A stretch of DNA of 64,000 nt from a virus. The stretch is taken from positions 52,196 through 116,195 of the IMG/VR virus record IMGVR_UViG_3300028840_002524. The stretch is one strand, 5' to 3'. Position numbers and translations under genes: made by a program. This document shows positions 31,239-60,432 of this stretch, one piece after another. A model generated the notes under the pieces. The model had not been told where the DNA came from, did not search any database, and was given only the letters and a program-made list of their open reading frames with translations. Positions within the stretch are counted from its first letter, which is position 1, and the number at the start of each line of letters is the position of its first letter.

Positions 31239-31263
31239 CAAACTCGATCATCTGGGAGGGGCA

Positions 31264-32046
31264 ATGAAAGAGATCAGGAAAAAGGAATTCGCCAACGGCT
31301 CCGTCTACGCCCTCGAAACGCACGATGGCTATCCGGTCGAGGTTACTGATACCTTTTTGCCGTTCTACACGAAAGACGCAATCGGCAGGCGGCAAAACGC
31401 CCTGAACACGCATGATCTTGGCAGCAGGGCGGAGCGATGGATGATAGGCGTTTCTGTGATGAGCGGTTGCCCTGTTGGTTGTCGCTTCTGCGCCACAGGA
31501 CAACTACCGAGGTGGAGGCGACTTGGTGCGGGTGAAATCATAGACCAAATCCGGTTTGTCCTTGAGCGAAGAGATGAACGATTCGAGGACGCGAAGGAAT
31601 ACAAGATCAATTATACGAGGATGGGGGAACCATTCTTAAACACCGAACAAGTCAAACTCGCTGTTTTATGGGCAGACCTTGCTACTCCAGGCGTTCACCA
31701 GTACATCTCAACCATTGGCATTGAAGGATCGGACTTTTCATGGATCAGGAATGACGCAACCCTTCAAATTTCCCTGCATTCATGCGACGAAAAGAAAAGG
31801 GACTGGCTTATCCCATACAAGCGGAAAATGAGCATTGCCGATCTTGGGAAGATTCGAACAGAAAGCAATCTGAAAACCACCTTGAATCTGACTTTGGTGG
31901 ATGAGCAGGATTTTGATATTCGTATTCTGAAGGACCATTTTCCAAAAGAAGAATTCTTCGTGAAACTCAGTCCTATAAACCGTAACGCGATCTCTGATTC
32001 CCACGGCCTTGGAGGCGGGGCAATCAGGACCGCAAACCTGATTTAG
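31264..32046 (+). CDS. RlmN/Cfr-like radical SAM protein lacking the C-terminal AACGQL segment
   Basis: 'SGCPVGCRFCATG' (CX3CX2C), 'MGEPFLN', 'ISTIG', 'LQISLHS'. Confidence 0.88.
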   Translation: MKEIRKKEFANGSVYALETHDGYPVEVTDTFLPFYTKDAIGRRQNALNTHDLGSRAERWMIGVSVMSGCPVGCRFCATGQLPRWRRLGAGEIIDQIRFVLERRDERFEDAKEYKINYTRMGEPFLNTEQVKLAVLWADLATPGVHQYISTIGIEGSDFSWIRNDATLQISLHSCDEKKRDWLIPYKRKMSIADLGKIRTESNLKTTLNLTLVDEQDFDIRILKDHFPKEEFFVKLSPINRNAISDSHGLGGGAIRTANLI

Positions 32047-32054
32047 GGGGCGTT

Positions 32055-32174
32055 ATGGAAGAGATCATCAGGGATCTCGAAAGTTCCGGTTACGACTATG
32101 CAGTGGCGATTGCCACCAAGGCAGAAGTCGAAGCCGGGGCGGCTTGTGGACAACTGTCGGTTGTCTGCGAGTAG
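32055..32174 (+). CDS. 39-aa peptide matching the RlmN/Cfr C-terminus (AACGQL)
   Basis: Translated by hand: MEEIIRDLESSGYDYAVAIATKAEVEAGAACGQLSVVCE*; own RBS AGGGGG; not in the ORF track. Confidence 0.8.
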   Translation: MEEIIRDLESSGYDYAVAIATKAEVEAGAACGQLSVVCE

Positions 32175-32181
32175 GAAAACG

Positions 32182-32216
32182 TAGCGGCTGGCCGGGGAAA
32201 CCCGGCTATGCCGCTA
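32182..32216 (+). terminator. Long GNRA-capped hairpin after the radical SAM/peptide pair
   Basis: TAGCGGC-TGGCCGGG-GAAA-CCCGGCTA-T-GCCGCTA; weak U tract. Confidence 0.45.
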
Positions 32217-32243: not shown

Positions 32244-32272
32244 TTGACAATCGCCTCATGATATGCTATACT
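32244..32272 (+). promoter_or_regulatory. Sigma70-like promoter
   Basis: TTGACA-17-TATACT with an extended -10 TG. Confidence 0.75.
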
Positions 32273-60340: not shown

Positions 60341-60432
60341 GCCGGTGTGGCGCAATAGGCAGACGCAGCCCCTTAGAAGGGTGGGTTCCCCCTCGGAATC
60401 ACATGCGGGTTCGAGTCCCGCCACCGGCACCA
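60341..60432 (+). tRNA. tRNA-Leu (anticodon TAG), 4-bp anticodon stem
   Basis: Acceptor GCCGGTG/CACCGGC plus A-CCA; Leu-type D arm; loop CT-TAG-AA; long variable arm GGTTCC/GGAATC; T arm GCGGG-TTCGAGT-CCCGC. Confidence 0.85.

What the first reader, a model, noticed from the sequence alone, without database searches (positions are those of the whole stretch)
31264..32216. Split RlmN/Cfr-like radical SAM system: methyl-carrier cysteine on a separate 39-aa peptide, resolving cysteine missing
Seen: the 260-aa ORF has RlmN/Cfr core motifs (GCxxxCxFCATG, MGEP, IST.G, ISLH) but stops before the family's C-terminal 'AACGQL' motif. That motif is in a separate 39-aa ORF (32055-32174, MEEIIRDLESSGYDYAVAIATKAEVEAGAACGQLSVVCE), 8 nt downstream, in a different frame, with its own RBS and a hairpin after it. 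The residue 7 positions before the first cluster Cys is Gly ('MIGVSVMSGC'), where E. coli RlmN has C118. Established: RlmN methylates C355 (AACGQL), forms a covalent Cys-CH2-adenosine intermediate on RNA and resolves it with C118; C118 mutants stay cross-linked to RNA. Inference: the enzyme may use the peptide as a dissociable co-substrate and attach it permanently through a methylene bridge to an RNA/DNA base or another target. Alternatives are RiPP-like modification of the peptide, or resolution by the peptide's second Cys (VVCE). Any of these would be a two-component radical SAM system unlike canonical RlmN.
Basis: partly seen in the sequence, partly recalled or inferred. Interest (0 to 1): 0.92.

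Follow-up and report, generated by a model that had tools for sequence, protein, structure and literature searches.

The report
Two-piece phage RlmN-like radical SAM enzyme
This phage makes a relative of the RNA-methylating enzyme RlmN as two proteins, a 260-residue body that lacks one of RlmN's two catalytic cysteines and a 39-residue peptide that carries the other; the layout is kept in nearly all related phages, including cultured ones, but its target and product are unknown.

Summary
ORF1 (31264-32046, 260 aa) is a minimal RlmN/Cfr-type radical SAM core. ORF2 (32055-32174, 39 aa) is homologous to RlmN's last helix, strand and AACGQL cysteine loop.

The split is not a frameshift. In 55 of 57 related loci a 39-48 aa gene with the same motif lies on the same strand. 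It is adjacent in 33 (in all three relative frames), more than 1 kb downstream in 19, and upstream in one. The peptide is under purifying selection (pN/pS 0.16).

Gly replaces RlmN's resolving Cys118 throughout the family. The system has no second conserved cysteine, and the peptide's 'VVCE' cysteine is not conserved.

A complex model supports docking by strand addition (ipSAE 0.74, best control 0.00), but this may reflect likeness to solved RlmN.

New here:
- cultured carriers: crAss-like Kehishuvirus 'tikkala', Moorella MTATph1, Pectobacterium Arno162/Wc4, Yersinia P778 and Vibrio D479
- D479 has two tandem peptide modules, both under selection
- forms with the peptide fused in front of the core, and one peptide-core-second radical SAM fusion
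- homing endonucleases and inteins in and around the gene

Permanent peptide-to-nucleic-acid ligation remains untested. The scan met this family before on other genomes. I found no paper on it.

The parts
31251..31258 (+). Shine-Dalgarno-like GGGAGGGG ahead of the ORF1 ATG
   Evidence: Read directly from the sequence.
31264..32046 (+). Core subunit: a 260-aa minimal RlmN/Cfr-like radical SAM protein. Cluster cysteines are C69/C73/C76. Gly62 sits where RlmN has the resolving Cys118. There is no N-terminal helical domain and no cysteine loop.
   Evidence: TIGR00048 RlmN scores 62.5 bits against a cut-off of 290. The PDB sequence search hits only RlmN and Cfr. The AF2 model has pLDDT 88, and the Foldseek top 11 hits are RlmN or Cfr. 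hhalign against canonical RlmN-like proteins gives E 1.4e-40. There are more than 2200 homologues, and nearly all of the 120 listed are 260-264 aa.
32045..32050 (+). AGGGGG ribosome-binding-like run that overlaps the ORF1 stop codon, 4 nt before the ORF2 ATG
   Evidence: Read directly from the sequence. GGAGG sites precede the peptide gene in Firmicutes-type loci.
32055..32174 (+). Small subunit: a 39-aa peptide that corresponds to RlmN's last helix, last barrel strand and AACGQL loop. Cys31 is the equivalent of the methyl-carrying Cys355.
   Evidence: hhalign of the peptide profile against canonical RlmN C-termini gives 92.7% probability over 43 columns. The peptide gene is present in 55 of 57 loci. 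pN/pS is 0.16 and codon-position entropy is 11.5/5.0/39.6. The complex model scores ipSAE 0.74 against 0.00 for the best control.
32182..32216 (+). GC-rich hairpin after the peptide gene, probably the end of the transcription unit. It has no T-run.
   Evidence: Folding gives -31 kcal/mol, z -5.29, and 0 of 200 shuffles fold as well. A TTGACA-17-TATACT promoter for the next genes follows at 32244-32272.

Best explanation
ORF1 and ORF2 together encode one phage enzyme, a two-subunit relative of the class A radical SAM methylases RlmN and Cfr.

How the parts fit:
- The 260-aa core holds the [4Fe-4S]/SAM site.
- The 39-aa subunit adds the missing last strand next to core residues 231-235. It places its single conserved Cys31 loop over the cluster/SAM site, at a ratio of one peptide per core.

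Proposed chemistry, by analogy with RlmN and inferred only:
- Cys31 is methylated by SAM.
- A 5'-deoxyadenosyl radical turns the S-methyl group into a methylene radical.
- That radical attacks an sp2 carbon of a purine-type substrate.

Because the resolving cysteine is replaced by an invariant Gly, the adduct must be resolved in another way. Either a non-cysteine base does it, or turnover is poor and the peptide is replaced.

The target is unknown. A specific RNA or DNA site, or an adenine nucleotide, seems more likely than bulk phage DNA.

The split is old. It most likely arose when a mobile element cut the gene in two, as in phage 'genes in pieces', and it has been kept since.
For: Shown by tool results:
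- The core and the peptide together cover canonical RlmN positions about 80-331 and 341-377.
- The nearest solved sequences and folds are only RlmN and Cfr.
- The peptide gene is present in 55 of 57 loci, in all relative frames and at variable distance. It also occurs in cultured phages that are only 33-59% identical in the core.
- The peptide is under purifying selection and is inherited together with the core (Mantel r 0.56, 0 of 999 permutations as high).
- The predicted complex scores ipSAE 0.74 against 0.00 for the best control. The runs agree in at least 86% of contacts and partner pLDDT is at least 66. That mark was reached by 58 of 80 solved complexes and 2 of 110 mismatched pairs.
- In the model, peptide residues 23-36 touch core residues 76-77 and 118/120.
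- Natural single-chain forms exist with the module in front of the core (P0124, P0142) or behind it (P0192, P0198), which argues for one peptide per core.
- Homing endonuclease genes lie between the two genes in L003 and L032, and inteins sit inside the core gene in about 20 protein clusters.

From the literature:
- A split phage enzyme that still assembles has a precedent in phage ribonucleotide reductase (PMC3045599).
Against: - No biochemical evidence exists for this family.
- The resolving Cys is called indispensable for RlmN and Cfr (PMC9692996). Here it is an invariant Gly, and no other conserved Cys exists in the core or the peptide. A normal methylation cycle is therefore not assured.
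- The complex score may come from the model's memory of solved RlmN structures.
- Vibrio phage D479 carries two tandem peptide modules, both under selection. That fits a simple one-to-one subunit less well.
- Some database 'fusions' are artefacts. P0369 is a frameshifted read, and many others keep an internal Met at the peptide start.
Confidence: 0.55

Rival explanations
1. Consumable peptide or covalent ligase. With no resolving cysteine, the methylene bridge is never broken, or the cysteine thiyl radical is never re-reduced. Each peptide is then used once. Either it stays attached to the target base as a peptide-CH2-nucleobase adduct, or it is discarded and replaced by a fresh copy. That would explain why it is a separate small gene.
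For: - Gly is invariant at the C118 position, and there is no second conserved Cys.
- RlmN C118A stays cross-linked to tRNA (PMC9692996; PDB 5HR6/5HR7 are among the hits).
- Vibrio phage D479 has two tandem modules. Their DNA is 79% identical but only 2 of 32 residues differ, so both copies are kept by selection.
- The separate peptide gene is almost universal in this family.
Against: - Fused forms exist in which the 'peptide' is part of a 315-695 aa protein. An adduct would then tether the whole enzyme.
- A fused clade outside this one also lacks C118, so loss of C118 does not require a free peptide.
- A non-cysteine base could resolve the adduct.
- No benefit to the phage is evident.
Confidence: 0.15
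2. Different chemistry. The conserved Cys acts as a hydrogen-atom donor or thiyl relay, as in spore photoproduct lyase or the radical SAM epimerases, and the enzyme does not methylate at all. Alternatively, in phages that have the small methyltransferase, the peptide shuttles a methyl group from that enzyme to the radical SAM core.
For: - One of the two catalytic cysteines that define class A enzymes is lost.
- In 17 of 57 loci a second radical SAM enzyme and a 147-aa class I SAM methyltransferase lie between the core and the peptide.
- Many methyltransferase-peptide and second-radical-SAM-peptide open reading frames are on record.
- One protein fuses peptide, core and a second radical SAM domain.
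Against: - The AACGQL loop and the SAM-binding motifs are kept almost as in RlmN.
- The window's own phage record (about 85% complete) has neither the companion radical SAM enzyme nor the methyltransferase.
- The fusions always involve whichever gene lies just upstream, and they keep an internal Met, so they may only reflect adjacency.
Confidence: 0.12
3. RiPP-like system. The peptide is the substrate, and the modified peptide is the product.
For: - A short peptide gene lies next to a radical SAM gene.
- One phage has tandem modules.
- The predicted strand-addition binding resembles the way leader peptides bind their maturases (own knowledge).
Against: - The peptide is conserved along its whole length (mean motif identity 82%) and has no variable core.
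- It is homologous to the enzyme family's own C-terminus.
- No SPASM or RRE domain was found in the core.
- No recurrent protease or exporter gene was seen among the neighbours.
Confidence: 0.05
4. Artefact or pseudogene. A recent frameshift or assembly error split an ordinary fused gene.
For: The two ORFs are only 8 nt apart in this window.
Against: - Nearly all of the 120 listed homologues, out of more than 2200, end at 260-264 aa.
- The peptide gene lies in every relative frame, often more than 1 kb away with other genes between, and once upstream.
- Both genes are under purifying selection.
Confidence: 0.01

Closest known systems
RlmN (23S rRNA A2503 / tRNA A37 C2-methyltransferase; TIGR00048; PDB 3RF9/3RFA, 4PL1/4PL2, 5HR6/5HR7, 6FZ6)
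   Same: - Same radical SAM fold, CX3CX2C cluster motif and MGEP, STxG and SLH motifs.
- Same AACGQL cysteine loop preceded by the same helix and strand.
- Best sequence and structure match.
   Different: - The cysteine loop is on a separate 39-aa protein.
- The resolving Cys118 is an invariant Gly.
- The N-terminal helical domain is absent, and a conserved insert of about 20 aa (YTKDAIGRKQN...) is present.
- The score is 62.5 bits against an equivalog cut-off of 290.
- The gene is phage-borne and the target is unknown.
Cfr (23S rRNA A2503 C8-methyltransferase; PDB 9P0P)
   Same: A class A radical SAM methylase with the same fold and a C-terminal cysteine loop.
   Different: It is a weaker match than RlmN. 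Cfr also has both cysteines (C105 and C338) on one chain and an N-terminal domain (PMC9692996).
Phage 'genes in pieces', such as the split NrdA of Aeromonas phage Aeh1 (PMC3045599; review PMC2988022)
   Same: - A conserved phage enzyme is encoded as two genes that must assemble.
- Homing endonuclease genes are found at the junction in some genomes (L003, L032).
- Inteins occur in the same gene.
   Different: - Here the split is nearly universal across a very wide clade.
- The small piece is only about 40 aa and carries the catalytic cysteine.
- Most genomes have no endonuclease at the junction.
Uncharacterised fused minimal RlmN-like proteins of about 300 aa (for example P0209, P0212, P0183) and the fused 'SNCGQ' clade without C118 (for example P0240, P0187)
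   Same: They are also minimal cores without the N-terminal domain. The SNCGQ clade also lacks the resolving Cys.
   Different: They are single chains and fall on the other side of the tree (SH-aLRT 91). None has a curated family name.

Membership tests
Class A radical SAM methylases (RlmN/Cfr) | CX3CX2C [4Fe-4S]/SAM motif in a radical SAM barrel of RlmN/Cfr type | tested here: met
   C69, C73 and C76 are invariant. RlmN and Cfr are the only PDB sequence hits and the top 11 fold hits. hhalign gives E 1.4e-40.
Class A radical SAM methylases (RlmN/Cfr) | Methyl-carrying Cys (C355 in E. coli RlmN) in a C-terminal AACGQL loop of the same polypeptide | tested here: not met
   The loop is absent from the 260-aa chain. 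It is supplied in trans by the 39-aa ORF2.
Class A radical SAM methylases (RlmN/Cfr) | Second, resolving Cys (C118 in RlmN, C105 in Cfr) 7 residues before the first cluster Cys | tested here: not met
   This position is Gly62 here and Gly is invariant in the family. No other conserved Cys exists in the core or the peptide.
Class A radical SAM methylases (RlmN/Cfr) | N-terminal helical RNA-binding domain | tested here: not met
   The alignment to canonical proteins starts at about their residue 78-80. In the model, residues 1-32 form strands only.
Class A radical SAM methylases (RlmN/Cfr) | Score above the curated equivalog cut-off (TIGR00048, 290 bits) | tested here: not met
   The score is 62.5 bits and covers residues 56-194 only.
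Class A radical SAM methylases (RlmN/Cfr) | C2 or C8 methylation of adenosine in rRNA or tRNA through an S-methylcysteine intermediate | not testable with these tools
   This needs anaerobic reconstitution and mass spectrometry.
Split 'genes in pieces' phage enzyme | Two ORFs colinear with one ancestral gene, with mobile endonuclease genes at the junction in some genomes | tested here: met
   The core and the peptide map to consecutive parts of RlmN. A NUMOD1-type gene in L003 and a GIY-YIG gene in L032/L057 lie between the two pieces.
Split 'genes in pieces' phage enzyme | The pieces assemble into one active enzyme | tested here: inconclusive
   This is a prediction only: ipSAE 0.74 against 0.00 for the best control. 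It may be recalled from solved RlmN structures.
RiPP precursor with radical SAM maturase | Precursor with a leader and a variable core, and a maturase with an RRE or SPASM domain | tested here: not met
   The peptide is uniformly conserved. In the core, Pfam finds only Radical_SAM.

The most novel reading that the evidence does not exclude
The 39-aa protein is a dissociable, consumable cysteine 'cartridge' for a radical SAM enzyme that cannot resolve its own covalent intermediate. Two outcomes are possible. It may end up permanently joined through a methylene bridge to a base in RNA, DNA or a nucleotide, which would make this a peptide-nucleobase ligase. Or it may shuttle methyl groups between a loading step and the radical step and be replaced after each use. 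Either way this would be a mode of radical SAM catalysis and a phage-made macromolecular adduct that, as far as I know, has not been described.
Probability: 0.15. Interest if true: 0.95.

Novelty: new variant of a known kind. Interest (0 to 1): 0.76.

Why it matters
RlmN and Cfr are the only characterised class A radical SAM methylases. Their mechanism is defined by two cysteines on one chain.

This phage clade is large: more than 2200 protein clusters at 90% identity. It keeps the methyl-carrying cysteine on a separate 40-residue protein and has no resolving cysteine at all.

If it methylates, it shows a new way to resolve the covalent intermediate. If it does not, it may make covalent peptide-nucleobase adducts or use a methyl-carrier peptide.

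The system occurs in cultured phages of tractable hosts (Pectobacterium, Yersinia, Bacteroides cellulosilyticus). Its target can therefore be tested directly, whether that is phage DNA, host or phage RNA, or a nucleotide.

Tried and rejected
- Frameshift or assembly error: rejected by comparison of loci.
- Resolution by the peptide's second Cys: rejected because that Cys is not conserved.
- Cys at position -4 as a substitute resolving Cys: it is present in only 45% of members and is Val here. Some canonical RlmN proteins have it in addition to the -7 Cys.
- Second radical SAM enzyme and small methyltransferase: both are absent from this phage record, so they are accessories rather than core parts. 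The other radical SAM gene in this genome is far outside the window, next to a capsid-like gene and a ParB-like gene.
- Database fusions: P0369 looked like a core-peptide fusion but is a frameshifted read. Many methyltransferase-peptide and second-radical-SAM-peptide 'fusions' keep an internal Met and always involve the gene just upstream, so I treat them as weak evidence.
- 'Longer' homologues of the core: they gave only intein-containing or endonuclease-fused forms and no informative domain fusion.
- hhalign of the peptide against a single RlmN sequence aligned only 8 columns. A profile of 15 sequences was needed.
- Scan for the related 'RKIGVS...CxYCFT' clade in viral contigs: no loci found.
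- Literature: six searches found no paper on a split or phage RlmN-like system. The library is not complete.
- The complex job passed its controls, but this is a half of a split gene with solved relatives, so the pass may be from likeness.

Full report
**1. What is in the window**

They are 8 nt apart and in different frames. A purine-rich ribosome-binding-like run lies before each start.

A strong hairpin follows ORF2 at about 32182-32216 (-31 kcal/mol, z -5.3). A near-consensus promoter for the next genes lies at 32244-32272.

The window is part of a 116-kb virus record that is about 85% complete. The neighbours are a UvsX/RecA-like recombinase, a Holliday-junction resolvase and a Cas4-type exonuclease.

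**2. What the two proteins are**

ORF1 matches Pfam Radical_SAM weakly. In NCBIfam it matches RlmN and Cfr models far below their cut-offs: TIGR00048 scores 62.5 bits against 290, over residues 56-194.

A family profile finds only RlmN and Cfr among PDB sequences. An AlphaFold model (pLDDT 88) has RlmN and Cfr as its top 11 Foldseek hits.

Profile-profile alignment to 15 canonical RlmN-like proteins gives E 1.4e-40. It maps core residues 11-243 to canonical residues about 80-331. Gly62 aligns with the resolving cysteine, and the core carries a conserved insert of about 20 aa.

The peptide profile aligns over 43 columns with the last 37 residues of the canonical proteins, which form a helix, a strand and the AACGQL loop (92.7% probability).

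Together the two genes therefore rebuild an RlmN without its N-terminal domain. The model shows only strands before residue 38.

**3. The split is ancestral**

- More than 2200 homologues were found. Nearly all of the best 120 (62-69% identical) are 260-264 aa.
- I examined 57 loci: 17 viral contigs, 39 genome or MAG contigs, and the window.
- In 55 of them a 39-48 aa gene of the type GYDYAVAIAT.AEI..GAACGQLSII lies on the same strand.
- It is adjacent in 33 loci, in all three relative frames and sometimes overlapping. It is 80-1000 nt away in 2, more than 1 kb downstream in 19, and upstream in 1. That one, L032, has a CGM variant.
- The two loci without a peptide gene are an IMG/VR record rated 22% complete and a 5-kb contig.
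- The peptide's core region has pN/pS 0.16. Codon-position entropy is 11.5/5.0/39.6, so it is translated and constrained.
- Peptide and core distances are correlated (Mantel r 0.56, 0 of 999 permutations as high).

**4. The cysteines**

The core family has only three invariant cysteines, all cluster ligands. The -7 position is an invariant Gly. A Cys at -4 occurs in 45% of members; it is Val here, and some canonical RlmN proteins have it as well.

The peptide has one invariant Cys. The second Cys of this window's peptide (VVCE) is not conserved.

A review states that class A enzymes use two conserved cysteines. It also states that C118 in RlmN and C105 in Cfr are indispensable for resolving the protein-RNA cross-link, and that they probably act as the base that deprotonates the attacked carbon (PMC9692996).

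**5. Wider family**

A profile search of 1.84 billion representative proteins found 56 with E below 1e-30 and 1914 with E below 1e-10.

In a tree of 83 cores, one side holds 35 rows (SH-aLRT 91), and none of them has the -7 Cys. That side includes:
- the split forms
- a nested pair (P0192, P0198) with the cysteine loop fused at the C-terminus
- a clade that ends just after the last strand, with no cysteine loop at all

The other side holds canonical RlmN/Cfr, minimal fused forms of about 300 aa with both cysteines, and a separate fused 'SNCGQ' clade without the -7 Cys.

Loss of C118 is therefore wider than the split, and none of these groups has a curated name.

**6. Do the two chains bind?**

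The complex model gave ipSAE 0.74 against 0.00 for the best of three controls.
- The runs agree in at least 86% of contacts, and partner pLDDT is at least 66.
- That mark was reached by 58 of 80 solved complexes and 2 of 110 mismatched pairs. My own alignments were used, so those counts hold only roughly.
- Peptide residues 13-17 pair with core residues 231-235.
- The cysteine loop (residues 23-36) touches core residues 76-77, 118/120, 204/208 and the conserved N-terminal segment.

Because RlmN structures are solved, this pass may reflect likeness. It shows that the peptide fits where RlmN's own C-terminus sits. It does not show that this pair binds.

**7. Other forms of the peptide module**

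- P0124 (315 aa) has the module at the N-terminus of the core, with no internal Met where the core begins.
- P0142 (695 aa) is peptide, core and a second radical SAM domain in one chain.
- Vibrio phage D479 has one small gene with two tandem modules. The 96-nt units are 79% identical in DNA but differ in only 2 of 32 residues, so both copies are under selection.
- In 17 of 57 loci a MoaA/viperin-like radical SAM gene and a 147-aa class I SAM methyltransferase lie between the core and the peptide, in a tight operon.
- Many open reading frames in the database join that methyltransferase, or a second radical SAM enzyme, to the peptide. These keep an internal Met and always involve the gene just upstream. 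One apparent core-peptide fusion (P0369) is a frameshifted read. I count this group as weak evidence.
- This phage record has neither accessory gene.

**8. Mobile elements**

A NUMOD1-type gene in L003 and a GIY-YIG endonuclease gene in L032 lie between the two pieces.

About 20 protein clusters carry a Hint/LAGLIDADG intein inside the core. It sits directly before the third cluster cysteine. One form has a GIY-YIG domain in front of the core.

This fits an origin of the split by insertion of a mobile element, as in the split phage NrdA (PMC3045599).

**9. Carriers**

Atlas clusters of this family are 79-100% viral. Host bins span Clostridia, Bacilli, Bacteroidales, Chloroflexi, Opitutaceae and archaeal bins.

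| Cultured phage | Core identity | Peptide gene |
|---|---|---|
| Kehishuvirus 'tikkala' (crAss-like) | 59% | 43-aa CDS next to the core |
| Moorella phage MTATph1 | 41% | 40-aa CDS next to the core, followed by thymidylate synthase and UvsX |
| Pectobacterium phage Arno162 | 33% | orf56, 60 aa, two genes downstream of the core |
| Vibrio phage D479 | 36% | one small gene with two tandem modules |

Arno18, Wc4 and Yersinia phage vB_YenM_P778 have a core about as distant as Arno162's (32-33%); I did not check their peptide genes. All of these genes are annotated 'hypothetical' or 'radical SAM protein'.

**10. Reading**

Firmly supported: this is a real, conserved two-gene enzyme of RlmN/Cfr ancestry that lacks the resolving cysteine.

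Inferred:
- The peptide is a one-to-one subunit.
- Cys31 is S-methylated and used for radical methyl(ene) transfer to a purine-like sp2 carbon.
- Something other than a cysteine resolves the adduct.

Open: the target, and whether the peptide turns over. A slow enzyme that spends two SAM per event seems ill suited to bulk genome modification, so I favour a specific RNA or DNA site or a nucleotide. That is my own reasoning and is not tested.

**11. Prior notes**

The scan has met this family on other genomes, and other agents reached similar conclusions. I re-tested the layout, the second radical SAM and methyltransferase insert, and the second-radical-SAM-peptide fusion here.

I found no paper on the system in six searches of the held library.

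Noticed in passing
L064:3800-4081 (Vibrio phage D479, OZ195776.1, VPHD479_0342): One small gene holds two tandem copies of the cysteine-loop module. The 96-nt units are 79% identical in DNA, with only 2 of 32 residues different, so both copies are under purifying selection.
   Followed up: partly
P0122, P0276-P0296; L054:143-1768: About 20 clusters of core homologues carry a Hint/LAGLIDADG intein inserted directly before the third [4Fe-4S] cysteine (CxxxCxF | intein | CAT). That cysteine would serve as the +1 splicing residue.
   Followed up: partly
P0124 (315 aa) and P0142 (695 aa): These are circularly permuted natural forms. The peptide module is fused in front of the core, and in P0142 a second radical SAM domain follows the core.
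   Followed up: partly
L019:2920-4135 and 16 further loci; P0300-P0358: An accessory pair lies between core and peptide in 17 of 57 loci: a 263-aa MoaA/viperin-like radical SAM enzyme and a 147-aa class I SAM methyltransferase (phrog_5399). Many database ORFs join the methyltransferase to the peptide.
   Followed up: partly
P0170, P0186, P0189, P0203, P0207, P0211, P0214, P0216, P0219, P0228, P0243, P0253 (alignment A3): A sister clade (RKIGVS...CxYCFT, about 270-285 aa) also has Gly at -7. It ends right after the last strand (..GFxYAxR) with no cysteine loop. I could not find its loci in viral contigs to look for a partner peptide.
   Followed up: partly
P0187, P0195, P0218, P0225, P0240, P0254, P0255: A separate clade of about 300-aa fused RlmN-like proteins keeps a C-terminal 'SNCGQ' loop but has Ile, Asn or Thr at the resolving-Cys position. 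No curated family covers it.
   Followed up: partly
ESM Atlas structural hit (row 4): A 520-aa bacterial cluster (Elusimicrobiota) carries an isochorismatase-family domain in all members, and its model matches this minimal RlmN-like fold (TM 0.85 over the query). This is a possible hint at a nucleotide or nicotinamide link.
   Followed up: no
window 32244-32272: A near-consensus sigma-70 promoter (TTGACA, 17 nt, TATACT, with a TG extension) lies right after the hairpin that closes the peptide gene. It probably drives the next genes (32301 onward).
   Followed up: no
G000:C1:28345-29448 (L060:1417-2520), outside the window: The same phage record has a second radical SAM gene of 367 aa (cluster motif CGHSCLYC). 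It lies between a capsid-like gene and a ParB-like gene and is unrelated to the RlmN-like pair.
   Followed up: no
window 60341-60432: The only tRNA gene found in the window is tRNA-Leu with anticodon TAG.
   Followed up: no
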